Below are positions 44,298-54,079 of a stretch of 64,000 nt of DNA, piece after piece. The notes below the pieces were generated by a model. The model did not search any database and was not told where the DNA came from. It was given only the letters and a program-made list of their open reading frames with translations. This DNA is from Gemmatimonadales bacterium (GTDB taxonomy: Bacteria > Gemmatimonadota > Gemmatimonadetes > Gemmatimonadales > JACORV01). Made by a program: the position numbers and the translations under genes. The first letter of the stretch is position 1. Each line of letters begins with the position of its first letter. The DNA lies in the NCBI GenBank assembly GCA_035502185.1, contig DATJUT010000011.1, forward strand, positions 17,228 through 81,227, in the 5' to 3' direction.

Positions 44298-46220
44298 ATG
44301 TTCCGCACGCTCCTCTCTCACGCCCGCGTCCTGGGCGTCGTCGCCGCGCTCGTCGCATTCACCGCGACCTGCAACGCCGGCGAGAAGACCGTCGCGCCGC
44401 CGCCCTCCTCCACCCTGACCAAGCTCGGCGGCGACGCGCAGACCGGACCCGCCGGTGATCCGCTGCCCACTCCGCTCGCCGTGCAGGTGGCGGATTCGGC
44501 CGGCCACGGCGTGGCCGGCGTGACCGTGACCTGGGCCGTGACCGCGGGTGGCGGCCACACGAGCGCCCGCACCAACTCCACCGACGCCTCGGGCGCCGCC
44601 TCCACGGCCTGGACCCTCGGCACCACCGTCGGCGCGAACAGCGCCACGGCCACCGTCAGCGGCCTGGCGCCGCTCACGTTCCACGGGACGGCCGTCGCCG
44701 GGCCGGCCGCCAAGCTGGTCTTCATCGCGCAGCCCGCGGGCGGGACGGCGGGAACCGCCTTCAGCCCGCCGGTGCAGGTCGCCGTCCGGGACTCGTTCGG
44801 GAACGCGGAGTCCGGGGCCGCCACCAGCGTGGGCGTCGCCATCACGACCGGGACGGGGTCGGCCGGCGCGACCCTGTCCGGCACGACGACCCGGACGGCC
44901 TCGGGCGGCACGGCCTCGTTCAACGATCTCAGCATCGACAAGGCGGCCTCGGGCTACACGCTGACGGCGACGGCGGCCGGCCTGGTGAACGGCGTGAGCG
45001 GCTCGTTCACGGTGGCCGCCGGGGCGCCCGCGAGCGTGGCGCAGCAGGCGGGCGACAGCCAGACCGCCGCGGCCGGCGCTCCGGTGGCGACCGCGCCGGC
45101 GGTGGTGGTGAGGGACGCGCTCGGCAACCCGAAGCCGGGGGTCACGGTGACGTTCACCGTCGCGTCCGGCGGCGGCACGATCAGCGGCGGGAGCCAGACG
45201 ACGAACGCCAGCGGCATCGCCAAGGTCGGCAGCTGGACGCTAGGAAGCGCGGGCACCAACACGCTGACGGCGGCCGTCACCGGCTCGGGGATCGCGGGCA
45301 ATCCCGTCACGTTCACGGCGACGGCGACGGGCGGCGGCGGGGGCGGGGGCGGGGGCGCGACCACGCTGTTCCAGGAGGACTTCGACGACGCGAACCTCGC
45401 CTCCCGCGGGTGGTACGACACGCCGACCGCCAGCGGCGTCAGCGCCAGCGCGATCACGACCGCGCAGCACGCGCCGGGGAGCACGGCGTCGCTGCAGATC
45501 AGCTTCGCGCAGGGCGGCACCACGCCCAACCCGCCGACCGCCGCCCGCCACAAGTTCACGCCGTCGAGCACGGTGTACGTGCGCTACTGGGTGAAGTACG
45601 ACTCGAACTGGGTCGGGTCGGGGCAGCCGTACCATCCGCACGAGTTCTACATCCTCAGCAACCTGGACGGCGACTACGACGGGCCGGCCTTCAACTACCT
45701 GACGGCCTACATCGAGCACAACTACCAGAACGGCGGCTACGCCATCCTCCAGACCCAGGACGGCAAGAACATCGACCAATCGAAGATCGGCGTGAACCTG
45801 GTCGGCGTGACGGAGAGCCGCGCCGTGTCCGGGTGCAACGGGACGCCCGACAGCACGGCGGACGTGCAGGTCATCTGCTACGTCAACGGCACGGCCTACG
45901 ACAACGGCAAGACCTGGAAGAGCGCCCAGCCGGTGTTCAAGCCCAACCCGGGGCCGGGGTACAAGGGCGACTGGCACATGGTCGAGGCCTACTTCCAGAT
46001 GAACTCGATCGTGAACGGCATCGGGCAGCTGGACGGCGTCGCGCAGTACTGGATCGACAGCACGCTCGTGATCGACAAGCACAACGTGCTGTTCCGCACC
46101 GGCGCCCATCCCACGATGCAGTTCCAGCAGTTCATGATGGGCCCCTACATCGGCGACGGCTCGCCCGTGGCGCAGCGCGCCTGGATCGACGACCTGGTCG
46201 TCATGACGGCCCGGCCGTAG
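44298..46220 (+). CDS. Lipoprotein: three Ig-like (Big-type) repeats, poly-Gly linker, C-terminal concanavalin-like / polysaccharide-lyase-like domain
   Basis: Tracked ORF 44178..46220. I start it at ATG 44298 (MFRTLLSHARVLGVVAALVAFTATC lipobox), which has AGGAGG 7 nt upstream. Blocks of the form V(T/A)VTW/F.V..GGG...T.ASG.A recur. A G9 run is followed by TLFQEDFDD...YVRYWVKYD...WHMVEAYF...WIDD. Confidence 0.7.
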   Translation: MFRTLLSHARVLGVVAALVAFTATCNAGEKTVAPPPSSTLTKLGGDAQTGPAGDPLPTPLAVQVADSAGHGVAGVTVTWAVTAGGGHTSARTNSTDASGAASTAWTLGTTVGANSATATVSGLAPLTFHGTAVAGPAAKLVFIAQPAGGTAGTAFSPPVQVAVRDSFGNAESGAATSVGVAITTGTGSAGATLSGTTTRTASGGTASFNDLSIDKAASGYTLTATAAGLVNGVSGSFTVAAGAPASVAQQAGDSQTAAAGAPVATAPAVVVRDALGNPKPGVTVTFTVASGGGTISGGSQTTNASGIAKVGSWTLGSAGTNTLTAAVTGSGIAGNPVTFTATATGGGGGGGGGATTLFQEDFDDANLASRGWYDTPTASGVSASAITTAQHAPGSTASLQISFAQGGTTPNPPTAARHKFTPSSTVYVRYWVKYDSNWVGSGQPYHPHEFYILSNLDGDYDGPAFNYLTAYIEHNYQNGGYAILQTQDGKNIDQSKIGVNLVGVTESRAVSGCNGTPDSTADVQVICYVNGTAYDNGKTWKSAQPVFKPNPGPGYKGDWHMVEAYFQMNSIVNGIGQLDGVAQYWIDSTLVIDKHNVLFRTGAHPTMQFQQFMMGPYIGDGSPVAQRAWIDDLVVMTARP

Positions 46221-46284
46221 CATCGCGGCAGTCCCGGCGCGCCCGCGCTTGCGGGCGCGCCGCCGCGCGACGACGTTTGCGCCC

Positions 46285-47907
46285 ATGGCCATCTACGTCG
46301 GCTTCGACCTCAGCACCCAGGGCCTCACGGCGATCGCGATCGAAGTCGAAGGGTCGCGGCGCGAGGTTGTCTTCGAGCGCTCCCTCAACTACGACGCCGA
46401 TTTCCCGGCCTACGGCACCACCCACGGCGTGCTCCCGCGCGAGGACCCGCTCGTCGCGACCTCCTCGCCGCTGATGTGGGCCGAGGCGCTCGACCGGATG
46501 ATGGGCGTCATCGCCGGGAGCGGACTCGACCTCTCGCGGGTCCGCGCTGTTTCGGGCTCCGGCCAGCAGCACGGCAGCGTTTACCTCAACGGCCACGCCC
46601 GGACCGTGCTGGCCGCGCTGGACCCGGGGCGGCCGCTGGTCGAGCAGCTCGCCGGTGTCTTCACGCGCAAGGCCTCCCCGATCTGGATGGACTCCAGCAC
46701 CGCGCGGCAGTGCGAGCAGATCACGCGGGCGCTCGGCGGCGCGGAGGCGGTGTCGCGCCTGACGGGCTCCATCGCGTTCGAGCGCTTCACGGGACCGCAG
46801 ATCCGGAAGTTCTACGAGTACGACCCGGCCGGGTACACGCGCACGGCGATGATCCACCTCGTGAGCTCGTACGGCGCGTCGCTGCTGGCGGGCCGGCACG
46901 CCCCGATCGATCCGGGCGACGGCGCGGGAATGACCCTGATGGACCTGGCGCGGAAGCAGTGGGCGCCCGCGGCGCTGGACGCGACCGCTCCGGACCTGGC
47001 GCCCAGGCTCCCGCCGCTCGCTCCGTCCTGGTCGATCGTCGGGCCGCTGGCCGACTACTGGTGCCGGCGCCACGGCTTTCCTTCCGCGCAGGTGGTGGCG
47101 TGGTCCGGCGACAATCCCTGCAGCCTGGTCGGCGTCGGGCTCGCCGGCGAGGGCGAGGTCGCGATCTCGCTCGGCACCAGCGACACGCTGTTCGGGACGA
47201 TGCGGGAGGCGCGCACCGACCCGTCCCTGGCGGCGAGCGTGTTCGGCGCGCCGACCGAGGGCTACATGGCGCTGCTGTGCTTCAAGAACGGCTCGCTCGC
47301 CAGGGAGCGCGTCCGCGACCGGGCGCGGCTCGACTGGGCGGGCTTCTCCCGCGCGCTGCGCGAGACGCGGCCGGGCAACGGCGGGGCCCTGATGCTGCCG
47401 TGGTTCGAGGCGGAGATCACGCCGACCGTGCTCACGCCCGGCGTCCGGCGCTACGGCCTGGATCCCGCGGACGCGGCCGGAGAGGTGCGCGCGGTGGTCG
47501 AGGCGCAGATGATGGCCCTGGCGACCCACTCGAGCTGGATGGGCGTGCGCGTGCAGGAGATCCGCGCCACCGGCGGCGCGGCTGCCAACCGGGAGATCCT
47601 GCAGGTCATGGCGGACGTGTTCGGCGCGCGGGTGCGGCGGCTCAAGGTGGGCAACTCCGCCTGCCTCGGCGCCGCGCTGCGCGCCTGGCACGCCGACGAG
47701 CTGGCGCGTGGACGGCGGCTGCCGTGGGGCGAGGTGGCCGCGGGATTCGTCGAGCCCGAAGAGCCGGGAGTGCGCCCGGCCCCGGCCAGCGTTCCGGTCT
47801 ATGCCGCGCTCAAGGACGTGTACGCGGCGTGCGAGGCGGACGCACTGGGCAAGGGGCCGGATCCTGGCCCGCTGATCGCAGGGTTCCGGGCCAGGTTCGG
47901 GACATGA
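46285..47907 (+). CDS. xylB: Xylulokinase (FGGY carbohydrate kinase family)
   Basis: Tracked ORF 46249..47907, started at MAIYVGFDLSTQGL. It contains GSGQQHGSVYL, WMDSST and GGAAANREILQVMADVFG. Confidence 0.85.
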   Translation: MAIYVGFDLSTQGLTAIAIEVEGSRREVVFERSLNYDADFPAYGTTHGVLPREDPLVATSSPLMWAEALDRMMGVIAGSGLDLSRVRAVSGSGQQHGSVYLNGHARTVLAALDPGRPLVEQLAGVFTRKASPIWMDSSTARQCEQITRALGGAEAVSRLTGSIAFERFTGPQIRKFYEYDPAGYTRTAMIHLVSSYGASLLAGRHAPIDPGDGAGMTLMDLARKQWAPAALDATAPDLAPRLPPLAPSWSIVGPLADYWCRRHGFPSAQVVAWSGDNPCSLVGVGLAGEGEVAISLGTSDTLFGTMREARTDPSLAASVFGAPTEGYMALLCFKNGSLARERVRDRARLDWAGFSRALRETRPGNGGALMLPWFEAEITPTVLTPGVRRYGLDPADAAGEVRAVVEAQMMALATHSSWMGVRVQEIRATGGAAANREILQVMADVFGARVRRLKVGNSACLGAALRAWHADELARGRRLPWGEVAAGFVEPEEPGVRPAPASVPVYAALKDVYAACEADALGKGPDPGPLIAGFRARFGT

Positions 47908-47911
47908 GGCA

Positions 47912-48008
47912 GGGGGTTGGGGATTGGGGGTTGGGGTTTGGGGAGCCGGAAGTCTGAAGACCGCGGTCTGAGAACTCCCCAATCCCCAAACCCCAATGCC
48001 CAAACCCC
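47912..48008. repeat. Imperfect 32-nt inverted repeat of telomere-like G-tracts (GGGGTT/GGGGATT/GGGGTTT) flanking a central palindrome; probable bidirectional terminator
   Basis: 47912-47943 reads gggggttggggattgggggttggggtttgggg and 47977-48008 reads ccccaatccccaaaccccaatgcccaaacccc. The arms are complementary at 28 of 32 positions by my alignment. The centre contains agaccgcggtct (47958-47969). The element sits between convergent stops at 47907 and 48013. Confidence 0.85.
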
Positions 48009-48012
48009 GTAC

Positions 48013-48636
48013 TCAGGCCACCAACCGATCGAAGGTGTCGAGCACCAGCTCCGTCAGCGAGCCGACGCTCACCTCGCCACCGGCGACGCCGCCCACGCCG
48101 ATCGCCCGCATCCCGCCGCGACGCGCGGCCTCGATGCCGTGCTCCGCGTCCTCCACCACCACGCGGCGCGCCGCCGGCACGCCGAGCCGCTGCGCCGCAG
48201 TGAGGAACACCTCGGGGTCCGGCTTGCCGTGGCGGACGTCCTCGGCGGAGACCAGCGCGCCGAAGCAGCGCTCCAGGCCGATCACCCGCAGCACCACCTC
48301 GACGTTGAGCCGCGGCGCCGACGAGGCGATGGCCTGCCGCCATCCCGCCGCCGCCAGCCGCTGAACCCAGTCCCTGACCCCGGTGAGAGGTGAGAGGCCC
48401 TGCGCGACCACGAGTCGGCGGTAGGTCTCCTCCTTCGCGTCGCCGATGCTGCGGATCCGCTCGGGCGTCGCGCCCTCGCCCAGCCAGGCGCGCAGGATCC
48501 GGTCGTTGCGCTGGCCGAACGTGGCGCGAAACTGCGCCTCGGATACCGTCACCCCGCCGGCCGCCAGCGCCTCCTGCCAGGAGCGCCAGTGGTGCGCGCG
48601 CGAGTCCACCAGCGTGCCGTCCATGTCCCACAGCAC
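48013..48636 (-). CDS. HAD-superfamily hydrolase (beta-phosphoglucomutase-like subfamily)
   Basis: Tracked 207-aa ORF with a GTG start. It contains LWDMDGTLVDS (DxDG), ASSAP, GKPDPEVF and VVEDAEHGIEAARRGGM. Confidence 0.8.
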   Translation of the reverse strand: MLWDMDGTLVDSRAHHWRSWQEALAAGGVTVSEAQFRATFGQRNDRILRAWLGEGATPERIRSIGDAKEETYRRLVVAQGLSPLTGVRDWVQRLAAAGWRQAIASSAPRLNVEVVLRVIGLERCFGALVSAEDVRHGKPDPEVFLTAAQRLGVPAARRVVVEDAEHGIEAARRGGMRAIGVGGVAGGEVSVGSLTELVLDTFDRLVA

Positions 48637-48655
48637 GGCCCGCGGAAGCGCCGCC

Positions 48656-49360
48656 TCACTGCTGCCCGTAGTAGGCGTCCTTGCCGTGCTTGCGGAGATA
48701 GTGCTTGTCCACCAGGTACGGCTCGGGGCCGGAGAGATCCGCCGCCAGGAGCCGCGCCGTCCGCTCCATCCGCGCCAGGACCTCGAGCACCCGGGCGTGC
48801 TCGACCGCGGCGAAGGGATCCGCGCCCCAGGTGAAGGGGCCGTGGCTGGCCACCAGCACCGCGGGGATCTCCTCGGCCGCGCGGGGGCTGCCGCCGAAGG
48901 CCTCGACGATCACCAGGCCGGTGTGGCGCTCGTAGTCCGTGGCCACCTCCGCGCGCGTCAAGGCGCGCGTCACGGGGACGTCGCCGCGGAAGTAGTCCGC
49001 GTGGGTGGTGCCGAGGCAGCGGATCGGAAGCCGCGCCTGGGCGAACGCGGTGGCCACCTCGGAGTGCGAGTGGGCGACGCCGCCGCAGCGGAACGCGCGG
49101 TACAGCTCGAGGTGGGTCGGCGTGTCCGAGGAGGGACGGAGCTCGCCCTCGAGCACCGCGCCGGTGCCGAGCGAGACCGGGACCATGCGATCCGGCGTCA
49201 GCTCCGCGTACGGGACGCCGCTGGGCTTGATCACCATGATGCCGTCCTGCCGGTCCACGCCGGAGACGTTCCCGAACGTCCCGAGCGCCAGGCCGCACTC
49301 GAACAGCTCGAGGTTGGCGCGGCACACCATCTCCCGCAGCTTCGGGGCGACCTCGCTCAT
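48656..49360 (-). CDS. araD: L-ribulose-5-phosphate 4-epimerase (class II aldolase fold)
   Basis: This is the 3' end of the giant tracked ORF 48656..53980. It contains MSEVAPKLREMVCRANLEL...GNVSGVDR...MVIKPSGV...PSSDTPTHLELY...GVAHSHS...GTTHADYF...LVASHGPFTWG. There is an ATGA overlap with the araB stop. Confidence 0.9.
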   Translation of the reverse strand: MSEVAPKLREMVCRANLELFECGLALGTFGNVSGVDRQDGIMVIKPSGVPYAELTPDRMVPVSLGTGAVLEGELRPSSDTPTHLELYRAFRCGGVAHSHSEVATAFAQARLPIRCLGTTHADYFRGDVPVTRALTRAEVATDYERHTGLVIVEAFGGSPRAAEEIPAVLVASHGPFTWGADPFAAVEHARVLEVLARMERTARLLAADLSGPEPYLVDKHYLRKHGKDAYYGQQ

Positions 49361-51045
49361 CGTGACTCCTCCCGCAGCGCGAGCAGCCGCTTCATCAGTC
49401 CGCCGAAGTCCGCCCCCGCGCCGGCGACGCCGCCGAAGGCGTCGTGCAGCTGGCGGTACAGCTCGTACAGCTCGCCGTAGACCCGGTGGGCACCGCCGTC
49501 GGGCGCGAACCGCTGGTCCTTCAGCGACGTCATGTGCCGCTGCGCGTCCTCGAACCGGTCGTACCCGCCGGCGGCGGCGCCCGCCGCCACGGCGCCCGCG
49601 ATCGCCGCGCCCAGCGCCGGCGTCTGCGGCGAGCCGGCGACGAGCATCGGGCGGCCCAGCACGTCGGCGTACACCTGCATGAACAGAGCGTTCTTCTCCG
49701 CGATGCCGCCGCAGCACACCACCCGCTCGATCGGGACCCGGTACGCGGTCAGTCGCTCCACGATCGTCCGCGCGCCGAACGCGGTCGCCTCGATCAGCGC
49801 GCGGTACACCTCCGCGGGCGAGGTATGCAGGGTCTGGCCGACCAGCAGCCCGGTGAGCCGCTGGTCGACGAGGATCGTACGGTTGCCGTTGTTCCAGTCC
49901 AGCGCCAGGAGCCCGGACTCGCCCGGCCGGAGGCGGGCGGCGCCGGACGTGAGCCGCGCGTGCACGTCCTCGCTCCCGCCCGCCGCCAGCTCGCCCCACC
50001 AGCCGAGCAGGTCCCCGACGGCGGACTGGCCCGCCTCGATGCCGTAGTAGCCCGGCATCACCGAGCCGGGCACGATGCCGCAGATGCCCGGGATGTCGGC
50101 GAGCCGCTCCTCGGCCGCGGCGACGGCGACGTCGCAGGTCGAGGTGCCGATGATCTTGACCAGCGTGCCCGCCGCCACCCCCGCGCCGACGGCGCCGTAG
50201 TGGGCGTCGAACCCGCCCATCGCCACGGGGATGCCGGCCCGCAGGCCGAGCGCGCCGGCCCACTCGGCGCACAACCGTCCCGCCGGGCGGTCGGCCGGCC
50301 ACGCTCTCGCGTAGAGGCGACCGCGCAGCTCCCCGAGCCGCGGATCGAGCCGCGCCAGGAACTCCGCCGACGGGAGGCCGCCCCAGGCGTCCGCGTACAT
50401 CGCCTTGTGCCCCGCCGCGCACACGCAGCGCTGGATCGCGGCGGGCTCCGTCACGCCGGCCAGGACCGCGGGCACGAAATCGGCCAGCTCCACCCAGCTC
50501 GCGGCGGCGTCGAACACCTCGGGCGCCACCTTGAGGCAGCGCCAGATCTTCGACCAGAACCACTCGGACGAATAGCGGCCGCCGATCGGCGCGAGGTACT
50601 CCGGCGCGTGCCGGGCCGCGGTGGCCGTGATGGCCTCGGCTTCCGCGGCGCCGGTGTGGTCCTTCCACAGCCACGCCTGCGCCGCGAGGTGGTCCCGCCA
50701 CCGCGGGTCGAGGGCGAGCGGCCGGTTGGCCGCGTCCACCGGCAGCGGCGTCGAGCCGGTGGTGTCGGTCCCGATCGCGATCACGCGGCCGGGCGAGCAG
50801 CCGCTCCGCGGGTCCGCCCCGGCCTCGGCGAGGGCGCCGCGCACCGACGCGCGGAGCCCGTCCAGGTAGTCTCCGGGATGCTGGCGCGCCAGGTGCGGCT
50901 CGCGCGCGTCCAGCAGCACGCCGCGCTCGCCCGACCGGTAGTCCGCCACCGCCGTCCCCACCGTCCGGCCGTCGGCGCAGTCCACCACGACGGCCCGCAC
51001 CGAGTTGGTGCCGAAGTCGACCCCGATCGTGAACGCGGGGGCCAC
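49357..51045 (-). CDS. araB: Ribulokinase (FGGY family)
   Basis: Tracked 562-aa ORF. It contains FTIGVDFGTNSVRAVVVD, WKDHT, GGIAEKNALFMQVYADVLGRP. Confidence 0.9.
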   Translation of the reverse strand: MAPAFTIGVDFGTNSVRAVVVDCADGRTVGTAVADYRSGERGVLLDAREPHLARQHPGDYLDGLRASVRGALAEAGADPRSGCSPGRVIAIGTDTTGSTPLPVDAANRPLALDPRWRDHLAAQAWLWKDHTGAAEAEAITATAARHAPEYLAPIGGRYSSEWFWSKIWRCLKVAPEVFDAAASWVELADFVPAVLAGVTEPAAIQRCVCAAGHKAMYADAWGGLPSAEFLARLDPRLGELRGRLYARAWPADRPAGRLCAEWAGALGLRAGIPVAMGGFDAHYGAVGAGVAAGTLVKIIGTSTCDVAVAAAEERLADIPGICGIVPGSVMPGYYGIEAGQSAVGDLLGWWGELAAGGSEDVHARLTSGAARLRPGESGLLALDWNNGNRTILVDQRLTGLLVGQTLHTSPAEVYRALIEATAFGARTIVERLTAYRVPIERVVCCGGIAEKNALFMQVYADVLGRPMLVAGSPQTPALGAAIAGAVAAGAAAGGYDRFEDAQRHMTSLKDQRFAPDGGAHRVYGELYELYRQLHDAFGGVAGAGADFGGLMKRLLALREESR

Positions 51046-51051
51046 GGCGGC

Positions 51052-52185
51052 TCAGCCGAGCAGGACCGGGCTCACCACGTCGAGCACGTCCGGGCCGGTG
51101 CCCGCCGCGCGCGCCCTGGCGATGTCGTCCTGACGCGCATACAGCCGCACCGCCTTCAGCGCGAGGTGGGCGAAGTTCACCAGGCTGCGCTCCATCGCCC
51201 GCGTCGGGTCGTCGCGGTAGGTGAACTGGTCCTGGCTGTACCAGCCGCGGAAGTCGCGCACGAAGGTGGTGTACAGGTACTCGACCGCCTCGGGCACCGA
51301 GATCGTGCCGAACATCAGGTCCTGGTCGTTGCGGCCCTGGCGCGCGTCGTTGACGTCGAACTTGTGGATCGGGACCCCGGCGTACGCCGCGAGGTCGCAC
51401 GCGGTGGACGCGGTGGTGCCTTCCATCTTCTGGTGGCCGTAGTCCACCGTGAGGCCGCAGTTCGTGCCGCCGCAGGTGTCGTTCACCCGCTGCGCCACCA
51501 GGATCGCGCTCGCCGCGGTGGGGACGATCATGAACAGCTCGCGCGGCTCGTACGGCTTCGGCTCGATCGCGAGCTTCACCCCGGCCTTCACGCATTCCTT
51601 GTTCACCGCCACCAGGGCCTCGGTGAACCACTCGAGCGACTGCCGGTAGTCGATCTGGAAGTGGTAGTCCGCGCCGTCGGAGCCCGGCCACACGCTCAGC
51701 ACCGGGATCTTGAGCGCCTTGCAGATCTCGACCGCCTTGAGGATCTCCTCGAGCGCGGCGCGCCGCAGCTCGGGCCTGGGGTTGCAGGGCCCGCCGAGCT
51801 TGAAGCGCGGGTTGGTCCAGGTGTTGATGTTGCACGCGGGCACCGTCATCCCCAGCTCGGCGAGGAAGCCGCCCTTCGCCCGCTCGATGGCCGCGGGATC
51901 CAGGTCGCCGTTCAGGGACTTCTCGAACACGTGCTGGTGGATCTCGATGGCGTCGATTCCCGCGGCCTTGGTCCGGCGACACTGCCCCTCGAAGTCGTTC
52001 CTGAACTTCGGGTCGTCGGAGTTGTAGCCCGGCGGCGCGAAGCGGTCCACGAAGTCGCCGGCCGACCAGTGGCCGACGCTCATCCGGATGTCCATCGCCT
52101 TGAGAAAGGTCAGTGCCTCGGCCCGGCCCATCGGCGTCCGGGTGGCGAGGGCGAGCTTGATCTGGTCTGCCGTGAAGCGCGGCAT
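51052..52185 (-). CDS. Xylose-isomerase-like TIM-barrel sugar isomerase (divergent XylA-type)
   Basis: Tracked ORF 51052..52272, started at MPRFTADQ (ATG 52185), with GGAGGAGG upstream. It contains SVWPGSDGADY (compare WGGREG), KLAIEPKPYEPR (compare IEPKPxEP), DYGHQKMEG and KFDVNDARQG. Confidence 0.75.
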   Translation of the reverse strand: MPRFTADQIKLALATRTPMGRAEALTFLKAMDIRMSVGHWSAGDFVDRFAPPGYNSDDPKFRNDFEGQCRRTKAAGIDAIEIHQHVFEKSLNGDLDPAAIERAKGGFLAELGMTVPACNINTWTNPRFKLGGPCNPRPELRRAALEEILKAVEICKALKIPVLSVWPGSDGADYHFQIDYRQSLEWFTEALVAVNKECVKAGVKLAIEPKPYEPRELFMIVPTAASAILVAQRVNDTCGGTNCGLTVDYGHQKMEGTTASTACDLAAYAGVPIHKFDVNDARQGRNDQDLMFGTISVPEAVEYLYTTFVRDFRGWYSQDQFTYRDDPTRAMERSLVNFAHLALKAVRLYARQDDIARARAAGTGPDVLDVVSPVLLG

Positions 52186-52251
52186 CGGGTCCTCCTCCCG
52201 CAGTGGCCCTAAGGTGGCGCGGCGGCGCGCGGCTCCGCAAGCGCCGGCGGA

Positions 52252-52279
52252 TTGACGCGGGCGCGCCCGCATGTAGTCT
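52252..52279 (+). promoter_or_regulatory. Candidate sigma-70-like promoter for the symporter gene (TTGACG, 16 nt, TAGTCT)
   Basis: TTGACG lies at 52252-52257 and TAGTCT at 52274-52279, in the 130-bp divergent gap. The match is by eye only. Confidence 0.3.
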
Positions 52280-52315
52280 CAAGGAGCTTTTCTCCCTCGC
52301 GCCCAAGGGGACGGC

Positions 52316-54079
52316 ATGCAAGCGCTCGACTGGCTGGTGGTGCTGGCCTACTTCATGGTGATCCTCGGCCTCGCCTGGTGGGTGTTCAAGCGCGGCAAGG
52401 ACACGGCCGACGACTACTTCCTGGCGAACCGCAACCTGGGCTGGTTCATCGTCGGGGCCTCGATCTTCGCCTCCAACATCGGCTCGGAGCACCTGGTGGG
52501 GCTCGCCGGCTCGGGCGCCACCAGCGGCGTGGCCCTGGCCCACTACGAGCTGCACGCCTGGGCGATCCTGGTCCTCGGCTGGCTGTTCGTCCCCTTCTAC
52601 ATGCGCTCCCGCGTGTTCACGATGCCCGAGTTCCTGGAGCGGCGCTTCTCGCCCTCCTCGCGGGTCATCCTCTCGATCACGTCGCTGCTGACGCACGTGC
52701 TCACCAAGTTCGCGGTCAGCATCTTCGCCGGCGGCGTGGTGTTCCGCGCCCTGCTGCCGGAGCTGCACGTCACCCTCCTCGGGCACGACTGGAACGCGTT
52801 CTGGATCGGGTCGGTGCTGATCGTGCTCCTCACCGGCGTCTACACGGTGCTGGGCGGGATGCGGGCGGTGGCGTACACCGAGGCCATGCAGACCTTCGTG
52901 CTGGTCTTCGGCTCCGCCCTGCTGACGATCTTCGGGCTGATCAAGATCGGCGGCTGGCACGCGTTCCGCTCGGCTCTCGATCCCGACCTGTTCAACCTGT
53001 GGAAGCCGCTGATCCCGCACGGCCTGGCGTCCACCTGGGCGCCGGTCAAGGAAGCGGGCCGGCAGGCCTGGTACTTCAACACCAACTACCCGTGGCTGGG
53101 GATGCTGTTCTGCGCCCCCATCATCGGGCTGTGGTACTGGTGCACCGACCAGTACATCGTGCAGCGGGCCCTCGGCGCGCCCGACGAGAAGACCGCGCGC
53201 CGCGGCTCCATCTTCGCCAGCTACATCAAGCTGCTGCCGGTGTTCATCTTCATCATCCCCGGGATGATCTCGTTCGCGCTCGCCAGGTCCGGCAAGATCG
53301 CGGCGCTCGCCACGATGGTCGGGCCCGACGGGAAGGCGATCCCGATGATCGCCCAGTCCGCCTACCCGATGCTGGTGATGTCGGTCCTGCCGGTCGGCAT
53401 CCGCGGGATCGTCGTGGCGGGCCTCATCGCCGCACTGATGAGCTCGATGGCCGGCGCGTTCAACGCGTCGAGCACCCTGTTCACGATGGACCTCTACCAG
53501 AAGCTCCGGCCCAACTCCTCCCAGCACGAGCTGGTCTGGATGGGCCGCGTCGCCACGGCGGTGATGGTGCTGGTGGCCCTGCTGTGGATCCCGGTGATCG
53601 AGGGCGCGCGCGGACTGTACGAGTACCTCCAGAGCGTGCAGGGCTACCTCGCGCCGCCCATCTTCACCGTGTTCTTCTTCGGCATCTTCAACAAGCGCCT
53701 CAACACCAAGGGGTGCATCTCGGCGCTGGTGGTGGGATTCCTGCTCGGCACGTTCCGGCTGCTCGTGGACACGCCGGTCGCGCTGCACCTCGCCGGCTAC
53801 GAGAACGGCTACACCCAGGGCTCGTTCCTGTGGGTGGTGAACAACATCTACTTCCAGTACTACAGCCTGCTCGTGTTCGTGGTGTCGGTCGTGGTGATGG
53901 TCGGGGTGAGCTACTCGACCGCCGCGCCGGCCACCGAGCGGCTCACCGGCCTGACCTTCGCCACGATCACCGACGAGCACCGGCAGGAGTCCCGCTCCAG
54001 CTGGGACTGGCGCGACGTGTTCGCATCGGCGCTGGTGGTGGTGCTGATCGTGTGCGTGTACCTGTACTTCCGGGGCTGA
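52316..54079 (+). CDS. Sodium:solute symporter family sugar transporter (SGLT-like)
   Basis: Tracked 587-aa ORF. It contains DYFLANRNLGWFIVGASIFASNIGSEHLVGLAG and RRGSIFASYIKLLP, and is hydrophobic throughout (about 13-14 TM). Confidence 0.9.
   Translation: MQALDWLVVLAYFMVILGLAWWVFKRGKDTADDYFLANRNLGWFIVGASIFASNIGSEHLVGLAGSGATSGVALAHYELHAWAILVLGWLFVPFYMRSRVFTMPEFLERRFSPSSRVILSITSLLTHVLTKFAVSIFAGGVVFRALLPELHVTLLGHDWNAFWIGSVLIVLLTGVYTVLGGMRAVAYTEAMQTFVLVFGSALLTIFGLIKIGGWHAFRSALDPDLFNLWKPLIPHGLASTWAPVKEAGRQAWYFNTNYPWLGMLFCAPIIGLWYWCTDQYIVQRALGAPDEKTARRGSIFASYIKLLPVFIFIIPGMISFALARSGKIAALATMVGPDGKAIPMIAQSAYPMLVMSVLPVGIRGIVVAGLIAALMSSMAGAFNASSTLFTMDLYQKLRPNSSQHELVWMGRVATAVMVLVALLWIPVIEGARGLYEYLQSVQGYLAPPIFTVFFFGIFNKRLNTKGCISALVVGFLLGTFRLLVDTPVALHLAGYENGYTQGSFLWVVNNIYFQYYSLLVFVVSVVVMVGVSYSTAAPATERLTGLTFATITDEHRQESRSSWDWRDVFASALVVVLIVCVYLYFRG

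What the first reader, a model, noticed from the sequence alone, without database searches (positions are those of the whole stretch)
47912..48008. Telomere-like G-tract inverted repeat (G-quadruplex motif on both strands) between convergent genes
Sequence: 5 nt after the xylulokinase stop the plus strand reads GGGGGTTGGGGATTGGGGGTTGGGGTTTGGGG, five runs of four or more G with 2-3 nt loops. A 33-nt spacer centred on the palindrome AGACCGCGGTCT follows. Then comes CCCCAATCCCCAAACCCCAATGCCCAAACCCC, ending 5 nt before the HAD gene stop. The arms pair at 28/32 positions, so either transcript can form a long hairpin. Each strand also carries a canonical G4 motif, and its complement carries an i-motif-capable C-tract. 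The units TTGGGG/TTTGGGG are ciliate telomere repeats. I saw no second copy in the window. Inference: this is a bidirectional terminator whose function may involve competition between G4 and hairpin folding, or a member of a dispersed REP-like family.
Basis: seen in the sequence. Interest (0 to 1): 0.55.

Follow-up and report, generated by a model that had tools for sequence, protein, structure and literature searches.

The report
G-rich heptamer-repeat hairpin between convergent genes
The 97-base element is real and far beyond chance, but it is a new example of an already described class of bacterial G-rich seven-base repeat pairs, here in a probable Gemmatimonadota genome, where it most likely gives two converging genes a shared 3'-end hairpin rather than acting as a telomere-like or mobile element.

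Summary
Window 47912-47943 is (GGGGGTT)(GGGGATT)(GGGGGTT)(GGGGTTT)GGGG, 47977-48008 is its imperfect complement (28/32), and a 33-nt spacer lies between. The element fills the 105-nt gap between the stops of an FGGY kinase (+) and a HAD hydrolase (-).

It is the longest inverted repeat in the window and has no second copy there. The repeat period is strictly 7 nt, so the likeness to ciliate telomeres is superficial.

It matches a published class: G-rich heptamer repeats of Xanthomonas and Nostoc (Rehm 2015). These often occur as convergent inverted pairs just after stop codons and form G4 and i-motif structures in vitro; their function is unknown. My scan found the same architecture in many phyla, always with the G arm 5' of the C arm (26:0).

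The element is inherited at this locus. An 87%-identical relative carries a homologous copy with different unit counts. Other relatives carry none, or an unrelated non-G4 repeat hairpin at the same junction. The spacer core has no dispersed copies.

The best reading is a slippage-built 3'-end hairpin shared by both transcripts. G4 folding is physically plausible but is not the feature kept at this junction. Function is inferred, not shown. Verdict: new member of a known kind, modest interest.

The parts
47905..47907 (+). Stop codon (TGA) of the FGGY-family sugar kinase gene (about 46285-47907)
   Evidence: Pfam FGGY_N/FGGY_C. The 540-aa product is 100% identical to P0001, and the called gene end on L001/L002 matches.
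47908..48012 (.). Whole intergenic gap between the convergent stops (105 nt), entirely taken up by the element plus 4-nt flanks (GGCA and GTAC)
   Evidence: Orthologous junctions in relatives have gaps of 1-4 nt with no element.
47912..47943 (+). G arm: (GGGGGTT)(GGGGATT)(GGGGGTT)(GGGGTTT)GGGG. It has a 7-nt period, is a duplicated 14-mer, and contains no C. This is the G4-capable tract of the + strand transcript.
   Evidence: A four-layer G4 is predicted in the nascent RNA.
47944..47976 (.). 33-nt spacer, AGCCGGAAGTCTGAAGACCGCGGTCTGAGAACT. It forms the apical part of the hairpin and has a small inner stem-loop.
   Evidence: It is 82% identical to the spacer of the homologous element in L125. 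Its core is unique in metagenome contigs.
47958..47969 (.). Palindrome AGACCGCGGTCT inside the spacer. It is not conserved in the relative (CGACCGCGTACT), so it is probably incidental.
47977..48008 (+). C arm: (CCCCAAT)(CCCCAAA)(CCCCAAT)(GCCCAAA)CCCC. On the - strand this is the G-rich arm of the HAD transcript, with one interrupted G run.
48013..48015 (-). Stop codon (TGA, read as TCA on +) of the HAD-family hydrolase gene (48013-48624). It is the last gene of a FGGY-aldolase-HAD operon on the - strand.
   Evidence: Pfam HAD_2/Hydrolase. Called genes on L001/L002.

Best explanation
The element is an inverted pair of G-rich heptamer simple-sequence repeats (unit GGGG + 3 A/T). This is the same kind of structure as the GGGAATC pairs of Xanthomonas and the GGGGA(C/T)T arrays of Nostoc. 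It sits exactly between the stop codons of two convergent sugar-metabolism genes in a probable Gemmatimonadales genome.

Shown: it is inherited vertically at this locus and is not mobile. Its arms change by gain and loss of whole 7-nt units.

Inferred origin: the arms change by replication slippage, and arm-to-arm template switching keeps them complementary.

Inferred function: it acts at the RNA level as a shared 3'-end hairpin. Either convergent transcript first makes the C-free G-rich arm and then the C-rich arm, and they fold into a stem of about 30 bp that starts 4-5 nt after the stop codon. Such a stem would hold back read-through into the antisense of the partner gene and protect the mRNA 3' end from 3'-to-5' exonucleases. 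This is what E. coli REP elements do (a dual terminator and stabiliser). It would also fix where converging polymerases meet.

A G-quadruplex in the nascent G arm (or in the displaced non-template DNA) is physically plausible and may delay hairpin closure. It is not the property conserved at this junction.
For: Anatomy and stability.

Class membership. Of 128 arrays read on the G strand, 26 had a complementary C arm within 300 nt downstream and 0 had one upstream. Spacers were 10-250 nt and not homologous between taxa. Most paired elements abut a stop codon. Tight convergent fits include L018, L086 (Gemmatimonadaceae) and L124. Rehm et al. 2015 (PMC4692102) described the class: a preference for four units, convergent inverted pairs, an average of 28 nt from the upstream ORF, arrays that are transcribed, and G4 and i-motif formation shown by CD.

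Locus history. The same strain on L001/L002 has an identical element. The 87% relative (L125-127) has a homologous element with two changed units in the G arm, one C unit fewer, and 82% overall identity, against 72-74% at third codon positions of the flanking genes. A rough NJ tree makes one loss the most parsimonious account of the element-less relatives.

Structure rather than sequence is kept. Of 11 syntenic lineages, 2 have GGGGKWT pairs, 1 has a GGGGYCA pair, 3 have long GTGATGA-type repeat hairpins (-67 to -88 kcal/mol, no canonical G4), 1 has a mini TAGGGG..CCCCTA hairpin, and 4 have none.

Functional analogies from the literature. REP325 acts as a partly Rho-dependent terminator and an mRNA stabiliser, and REPs between convergent genes correlate with higher expression of both (bioRxiv 10.64898/2026.03.23.713779). 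A nascent stem-loop is needed to position programmed RNA polymerase collisions at bidirectional terminators (bioRxiv 10.1101/2022.10.23.513370).
Against: There are no expression data, so termination and stabilisation are inferred. There is no U-tract and the simple terminator scan found nothing. From my own knowledge, hairpins without U-tracts terminate poorly in vitro in the high-GC bacteria that have been tested.

The element is dispensable. Close relatives have 1-4 nt between the same two stops. Two other convergent junctions in this window have no unusual fold (the gene calls there are crude).

A hairpin alone does not explain the strict G-arm-first polarity. The conservation excess over third codon positions rests on 106 nt and one pairwise comparison.
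Confidence: 0.5

Rival explanations
1. Neutral by-product. The arrays are simple-sequence repeats that expanded by polymerase slippage from a small GGGG..CCCC seed hairpin made by the convergent gene ends. They are tolerated because the site is non-coding and have no function of their own.
For: The element is absent from close relatives with the same synteny. Unit number and unit sequence vary between lineages. A 16-nt TAGGGGCCAGCCCCTA mini-hairpin in L135 looks like a seed or a remnant. Other convergent junctions in the window have no such structure. Rehm et al. could not assign a function.
Against: Long repeat-armed hairpins recur at this one junction in 6 of 11 lineages, with two clearly unrelated repeat types (G-rich heptamers and GTGATGA-type units). 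Polarity is strict at 26:0 across phyla. The element fits within 4 nt of both stops. It is more conserved than third codon positions (0.82 against 0.72-0.74). Independent slippage in two arms would not by itself keep them complementary.
Confidence: 0.3
2. G-quadruplex-dependent switch. The nascent G arm, or the displaced non-template DNA strand, folds into a G4 before the C arm is made. The G4/hairpin competition, possibly with Rho loading on the freed C-rich arm or R-loop formation, sets termination efficiency.
For: With G-quadruplex terms, a four-layer G4 is the minimum-energy fold of the growing + strand transcript until the C arm is almost complete. The full hairpin wins only at the end (-69.6 against -67.1 kcal/mol). 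(GGGGATT)3GGGG DNA forms a K+-dependent G4 with T1/2 above 95 C, and (CCCCAAT)3CCCC forms an i-motif up to pH 6.5 (PMC4692102). The G-arm-first polarity on both transcripts is what this model needs. A G4-hairpin switch has been proposed for E. coli intergenic motifs (PMC5100583).
Against: Three related lineages have equally long hairpins at the same junction built from GTGATGA-type repeats, with no canonical G4 (G4Hunter about 1.3). On the - strand one G run is interrupted, and the hairpin overtakes the G4 early. G4 energies in the model are approximate. There is no in vivo evidence for any member of the class.
Confidence: 0.12
3. Non-autonomous mobile element (REP/REPIN or MITE) that inserted between the two genes.
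For: Presence/absence polymorphism, with junctions of only 1-4 nt in relatives. A REPIN-like layout of two inverted units of about 30 nt around a spacer. In some Gammaproteobacteria MAGs similar arrays carry a conserved inner anchor, TAGTCGGAA, at several loci of one genome.
Against: The spacer core AGCCKGAAGTCTGAMGACCGCG occurs only on the source contig in metagenome contigs, plus one unrelated chance hit. There is no second copy in 64 kb. The flanks GGCA and GTAC are not a target-site duplication. There is no GTAG head. The element is orthologous and diverging in place in an 87% relative. Spacers of paired arrays in other taxa are unrelated.
Confidence: 0.05
4. DNA-level element: a cruciform or an array of protein-binding sites (nucleoid protein, recombinase or replication-related) that works independently of transcription.
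For: The DNA strand also folds far better than shuffles (-37.8 kcal/mol, z -6.5). The regular 7-nt spacing of GGGG blocks could be read by a protein.
Against: There is no associated gene and no conserved spacing or sequence between lineages at the junction. The position tracks stop codons, not any known DNA-processing site. Arrays of the class are transcribed (PMC4692102).
Confidence: 0.03

Closest known systems
G-rich heptameric simple-sequence repeats of Xanthomonas (GGGAATC) and Nostoc/Anabaena (GGGGA(C/T)T), including their convergent inverted pairs (Rehm et al. 2015, PLoS One, PMC4692102)
   Same: 7-nt unit of a G run plus an A/T-rich loop. About four units per array. Intergenic, within tens of nt of the upstream stop codon. 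Two arrays in convergent orientation around a short unrelated spacer. Unit number varies between relatives while the pair type is kept. G4 and i-motif capable; GGGGATT and CCCCAAT units occur here verbatim.
   Different: The host is a probable Gemmatimonadales bacterium at 73% G+C. Units are mixed (GGGGGTT/GGGGATT/GGGGTTT). Only one copy is visible in 64 kb, so genome-wide abundance is unknown. Here the pair exactly fills a convergent gene junction; in Xanthomonas only 16% of arrays lie between convergent ORFs.
Cyanobacterial STRR1 short tandemly repeated repetitive sequences, CCCCA(A/G)T (Mazel et al. 1990; from my own knowledge, cited as ref. 39 in PMC4692102)
   Same: The same heptamer (CCCCAAT/ATTGGGG) in tandem, in intergenic DNA.
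   Different: STRR arrays are mostly solo, often long, and were described in heterocystous cyanobacteria. About half of my scan hits were such cyanobacterial arrays.
REP/BIME elements and REPINs of Enterobacteria and Pseudomonas
   Same: Extragenic hairpin-forming inverted repeats at 3' ends of genes and between convergent genes. Proposed dual role as partial terminator and mRNA stabiliser. Present or absent between strains.
   Different: REPs are near-identical dispersed copies with a GTAG head and are mobilised by RAYT transposases. Here the core is unique, there is no GTAG, and the arms are simple tandem repeats.
Bidirectional intrinsic terminators between convergent genes (E. coli; Ju et al. 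2019 from my own knowledge; Wang et al. 2022 preprint)
   Same: One stem-loop between convergent genes, usable by both transcripts.
   Different: Canonical ones are short GC stems flanked by an A-tract and a U-tract. This element has a repeat-built stem of about 30 bp and no flanking U/A tracts.
E. coli G-quadruplex-hairpin-duplex switch motifs (Kaplan et al. 2016, PMC5100583)
   Same: Intergenic G4 motifs found in pairs on opposite strands with a complementary C-rich segment. Hairpin and G4 are both feasible.
   Different: Those are conserved dispersed motifs with fixed loops and a 5' C-rich flank. They are not heptamer arrays and have no G-arm-first long stem.
Ciliate telomere repeats (TTGGGG, TTTTGGGG)
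   Same: G4T2-4 composition and G4-forming ability.
   Different: Those have a period of 6 or 8 nt, not 7. They sit at chromosome ends, in one orientation, over hundreds of bp, and are made by telomerase. None of this applies here.

Membership tests
G-rich heptamer SSR class (Rehm 2015) | Tandem 7-nt units with a conserved G run and an A/T-rich remainder, at least 2 units, typically about 4 | tested here: met
   Period 7, 4.7 copies per arm, 14-nt super-period. Units are GGGGGTT/GGGGATT/GGGGTTT.
G-rich heptamer SSR class (Rehm 2015) | Intergenic, close (up to 50 nt) to the stop of the upstream ORF, with the G-rich strand on that ORF's coding strand | tested here: met
   The G arm starts 4 nt after the FGGY stop. 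On the - strand the G-rich arm starts 4 nt after the HAD stop.
G-rich heptamer SSR class (Rehm 2015) | Paired form: two arrays on opposite strands in convergent orientation (G arm 5' of C arm) around a short spacer | tested here: met
   The same polarity holds in 26 of 26 paired arrays from many phyla and the opposite in 0.
G-rich heptamer SSR class (Rehm 2015) | Many arrays dispersed over the genome (tens to hundreds) | not testable with these tools
   Only 64 kb of the source genome is available, with one element. Related Gemmatimonadota loci do carry further G-heptamer arrays (L139 29-67 and 15975-16024; L086; L115).
G-rich heptamer SSR class (Rehm 2015) | K+-dependent G4 (G strand) and i-motif (C strand) formation in vitro | not testable with these tools
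   Published for (GGGGATT)3GGGG and (CCCCAAT)3CCCC, not for this exact mixed-unit sequence. The model predicts a four-layer RNA G4.
REP / REPIN | Multiple near-identical copies of the unit in the genome | tested here: not met
   No other copy in the window. The spacer core is unique among 241 million metagenome records apart from the source contig. The whole genome is not available, so this is not absolute.
REP / REPIN | Conserved GTAG head at the 5' end of each unit, and an associated RAYT transposase | tested here: not met
   There is no GTAG at either end. I did not search for a RAYT gene.
MITE | Terminal inverted repeats flanked by a target-site duplication, in multiple copies | tested here: not met
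   The flanks GGCA and GTAC are not direct repeats. The core is single-copy. The element is orthologous and diverging in place.
Canonical intrinsic (Rho-independent) terminator | GC-rich stem-loop followed directly by a U-tract | tested here: not met
   The terminator scan found none in 46000-50000. The stem is followed by GUACUCAGG on + and by CUGCCUCAUG on -.
Bidirectional terminator (functional class) | Transcript 3' ends of both convergent genes map to the two feet of one hairpin | not testable with these tools
   No RNA data are available. Only position and fold are consistent.
Telomeric repeat (ciliate type) | Uniform 6- or 8-nt unit, one orientation, at the end of a linear replicon | tested here: not met
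   7-nt period, inverted pair, internal position between two genes.
Any Rfam family | Score at or above the family's gathering threshold | tested here: not met
   The only hits were generic hairpin matches to miRNA precursor models at 17-35 bits, against thresholds of 45-110.

The most novel reading that the evidence does not exclude
The strict G-rich (C-free) arm-first polarity seen in every paired array across phyla may mark a distinct, factor-assisted type of bidirectional terminator. The same purine-rich-arm-first polarity also holds in the non-G4 repeat hairpins at the same junction. In this model the nascent G-rich arm first folds on its own, as a G4 or a stable R-loop with the non-template strand. 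This leaves the following C-rich arm briefly single-stranded as a Rho or RNase entry site. Hairpin closure then seals the 3' end. Such hairpins would be born repeatedly at convergent stop codons by mirrored slippage.
Probability: 0.12. Interest if true: 0.6.

Novelty: new member of a known kind. Interest (0 to 1): 0.3.

Why it matters
The function of bacterial G-rich heptamer repeats has been open since they were described. This locus offers a clean natural comparison. The same convergent gene junction occurs in related lineages with a G4-type repeat hairpin, with a non-G4 repeat hairpin, with a mini hairpin, or with no spacer at all. That makes two questions directly testable with reporters and 3'-end mapping: whether hairpin or G4 is the selected property, and why the G arm always comes first. 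It also extends the class to Gemmatimonadota and other little-studied phyla. By itself, though, the element is one more instance of a described repeat type and not a new system.

Tried and rejected
- **Rfam** at a permissive E-value gave only sub-threshold miRNA-precursor hairpin matches. I rejected these as generic hairpin hits.
- **Consensus terminator and promoter scan** found nothing.
- **Telomere reading** rejected: the period is 7 nt, the arrays are inverted, and the site is internal.
- **Mobile-element reading** rejected. The spacer-core scan of metagenome contigs found only the source contig, plus L142. L142 is an unrelated lower-GC sequence with no G arrays, so it is a chance hit. There is no target-site duplication and no GTAG.
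- **Spacer palindrome AGACCGCGGTCT** as a functional site rejected, because it is not conserved in L125.
- **A universal terminator type for this genome** rejected: two other convergent junctions fold no better than shuffles.
- **Stop codons in all frames** as the rationale for heptamers fits the GTGATGA-type arms of relatives, but the window's units contain no stops (inspection).
- **Weak likeness** of the inner junction GGGG-AGCCGGAAG to the TAGTCGGAA anchor of gammaproteobacterial arrays (7 of 9) I judged probably chance.
- **My ORF-based gene calls** are crude, so context counts from them are approximate.

Full report
**1. The observation**

The FGGY kinase gene ends with TGA at 47905-47907. 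After GGCA comes GGGGGTTGGGGATTGGGGGTTGGGGTTTGGGG (47912-47943). A 33-nt spacer follows (47944-47976), then CCCCAATCCCCAAACCCCAATGCCCAAACCCC (47977-48008), then GTAC, then the HAD hydrolase stop on the minus strand (48013-48015).

Pfam confirms FGGY_N/FGGY_C and HAD_2 for the flanking genes. Gene calls on two public contigs of the same strain give the same ends and a 105-nt gap. The arms pair at 28 of 32 positions.

Two details need correcting. The palindrome AGACCGCGGTCT is at 47958-47969, 3.5 nt off the centre of symmetry. The repeat has a strict 7-nt period, each arm being a duplicated 14-mer. So the units are heptamers and not the 6- or 8-nt ciliate telomere units.

The element is far beyond chance.
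- A three-unit pattern gives six hits in the window, all inside the element, against 0.01 expected.
- The RNA folds are -72.1 kcal/mol (z -5.4) on the plus strand and -68.8 (z -6.0) on the minus strand. The DNA fold is -37.8 (z -6.5). No shuffle folded as well.
- It is the longest inverted repeat in the 64 kb.
- It has no second copy in the window.

**2. Host and context**

The window has 70-77% G+C. The kinase is 100% identical to a protein on two soil metagenome contigs. It is 84% identical to one that NCBI names as coming from a Gemmatimonadales MAG. The host is therefore probably a Gemmatimonadota bacterium.

On the minus strand the HAD gene is the last gene of a FGGY-aldolase-HAD operon. 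The element thus lies between the 3' ends of two convergent sugar-metabolism transcription units. Rfam gives only sub-threshold generic hairpin hits. A consensus scan finds no canonical terminator, and there is no U-tract.

**3. A known class**

About half are cyanobacteria. The rest include Planctomycetota, Acidobacteriota, Gammaproteobacteria (including Stenotrophomonas), Chloroflexota, Streptomyces and three Gemmatimonadota.

I read every array on its G strand. Of 128 arrays, 26 have a complementary C arm within 300 nt downstream and none has one upstream. Two elements whose two arms both match the pattern are counted twice, so about 24 are distinct. When paired, the layout is therefore always 5'-G arm, spacer, C arm-3' on both strands. 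Spacers range from 10 to 250 nt and are unrelated between taxa. Most pairs abut a stop codon. Several fill a convergent junction just as here, for example L018, L086 (Gemmatimonadaceae) and L124.

This class is published. Rehm et al. 2015 (PMC4692102) reported the following.
- 186 GGGAATC arrays in Xanthomonas campestris, with 70 cases of two arrays in convergent orientation.
- 89 GGGGA(C/T)T arrays in Nostoc PCC 7120.
- A preference for four units.
- Arrays on average 28 nt from the upstream ORF.
- Evidence that the arrays are transcribed.
- Unit number varies between related species while the pair type is kept.
- CD evidence that (GGGGATT)3GGGG forms a K+-dependent G4 with T1/2 above 95 C.
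- CD evidence that (CCCCAAT)3CCCC forms an i-motif up to pH 6.5.
- No function could be assigned.

The cyanobacterial arrays correspond to the older STRR1 repeats (from my own knowledge; the paper cites that work). The window's element meets every sequence-level criterion of the class. Genome-wide abundance cannot be tested on 64 kb.

**4. History at this locus**

I recovered the orthologous FGGY|HAD junction from 11 syntenic relatives.

| Lineage | Kinase identity to window | State of the junction |
|---|---|---|
| L001, L002 (same strain) | 100% | Identical element |
| L125-127 | 87% | Homologous element |
| L131-134 | 78% | GGGGYCA pair that overlaps both ORF ends |
| L138 | 78% | Long GTGATGA-type repeat hairpin |
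| L144 | 76% | Long GTGATGA-type repeat hairpin |
| L139/L140 | 75% | Long GTGATGA-type repeat hairpin |
| L135 | 79% | 16-nt TAGGGGCCAGCCCCTA only |
| L004 | 86% | No spacer (1-4 nt gap) |
| L128 | 84% | No spacer (1-4 nt gap) |
| L137 | 78% | No spacer (1-4 nt gap) |
| L143 | 79% | ORFs overlap, no element |

A further relative, L003 (88%), has a different downstream gene, so its synteny is broken and it is not counted.

The L125-127 element keeps the same flanks and a recognisably homologous spacer. Two units in its G arm are changed and its C arm has one unit fewer. Overall identity is 82%, against 72-74% at third codon positions of the flanking genes.

The GTGATGA-type hairpins fold at -67 to -88 kcal/mol. 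They have no canonical G4.

A rough neighbour-joining tree puts the two element-bearing lineages as the earliest branches of the clade that holds the empty junctions. One loss is therefore the simplest account.

The spacer core is unique in metagenome contigs apart from the source contig and one unrelated chance hit. The element is thus inherited and remodelled in place. It is not a mobile copy.

**5. How it most likely works**

*Shown.* Both transcripts can form a stem of about 30 bp that begins 4-5 nt after their stop codons. The arms change by whole heptamers. A long repeat-armed hairpin is a recurrent feature of this junction, and its sequence, including G4 capacity, is not.

*Inferred.* The hairpin serves both convergent transcripts as a 3'-end structure that limits read-through into the partner's antisense and shields the 3' end from exonucleases. 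The analogy is to REP elements, for which a dual role as partly Rho-dependent terminator and mRNA stabiliser has been reported, along with higher expression of convergent pairs. A second analogy is to the stem-loops needed to position polymerase collisions at bidirectional terminators. Arm growth by slippage, with template switching between arms to keep them complementary, is inferred from established quasipalindrome mutagenesis (my own knowledge).

*Against a strong functional claim.* There is no U-tract. Close relatives manage with a 1-nt junction. Two other convergent junctions in the window have ordinary folds. I put 0.5 on this explanation and 0.3 on a purely neutral repeat expansion.

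**6. The G4 question**

With G-quadruplex terms in ViennaRNA, a four-layer G4 is the minimum-energy fold of the growing plus-strand transcript until the C arm is nearly complete. The full hairpin wins only narrowly at the end (-69.6 against -67.1 kcal/mol). On the minus strand, where one G run is interrupted, the hairpin wins early.

But the non-G4 hairpins at the same junction in three lineages argue that G4 is not what is kept here. I give the G4-switch model 0.12.

**7. Verdict**

Its main value is as a natural comparative series for testing what these repeat pairs do and why the G arm always comes first.

Noticed in passing
L138 3120-3260; L139 11620-11740; L144 2820-2940: At the junction orthologous to the window's element, three relatives carry long hairpins (-67 to -88 kcal/mol). 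Their arms are tandem GTGATGA-type units (17-nt repeat GGAGGTGATGAAGTGAK in L138). The units contain TGA on one arm and TCA on the other and run into both ORF ends. They have no canonical G4.
   Followed up: partly
L071 2880-2915 and 4350-4531; L088 5612-5650; L110 4236-4391; L084 7486-7618; L015 about 6030: In several Gammaproteobacteria MAGs, heptamer arrays end in a conserved inner anchor, (GGGGTTA)n-GTCGGAA, mirrored as TTCCGAC-(TAACCCC)n, around unrelated 90-120 nt spacers. A different heptamer, (GTGATTA)n, ends in the same anchor. This may be a true dispersed family, or a seed motif from which the arrays grow.
   Followed up: partly
L046 7500-7622; L026 5282-5341; L059 6481-6512; L102 5919-5964; L042 6-44; L043 6-30: Several heptamer arrays sit at the very end of their contigs. 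Long arrays may break short-read assemblies. I did not examine whether any marks a real replicon end.
   Followed up: no
L095 4339-4551 (Stenotrophomonas sp.): A composite array, about nine GGGGATT units followed by about twelve CGGGATT units, with a short complementary arm 30 nt downstream. It links the GGGG-type units seen here to the GGGAATC type of Xanthomonadaceae.
   Followed up: no
window 45316-45357; also L003 2043-2073, L004 2047-2070, L128 459-489: A G-run tract (GGGCGGCGGCGGGGGCGGGGGCGGGGG here; GGGGGT or GGGGGC hexamers in relatives) lies inside the Big_1-domain gene upstream of the kinase. It is a coding, presumably glycine-rich, stretch that also matches a G4 motif, and its unit varies between relatives.
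   Followed up: no
L139 29-67 and 15975-16024; L137 17746-17764: Relatives of the source organism carry further solo G-rich heptamer arrays. (GGGKCTA)n lies 7 nt upstream of a gene start on its non-coding strand, and (GGGGCAC[A])n lies in a divergent intergenic region. This suggests such repeats are common in this Gemmatimonadota lineage.
   Followed up: partly
window 48656-53980 (-): The mechanical 1774-aa ORF is an artefact of high G+C. Only its last 190 or so residues match Aldolase_II. Gene calls on the identical contig L001 show separate aldolase (234 aa) and second FGGY kinase (562 aa) genes.
   Followed up: partly
L131 3105-3225: In the 78% relative the G-heptamer and C-heptamer arrays (GGGGCCAGGGGTCAGGGGCTAG ... 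CTATCCCCTAGCCCC) form the last codons of both convergent ORFs. The repeat units there are translated and contain the stop codons.
   Followed up: no
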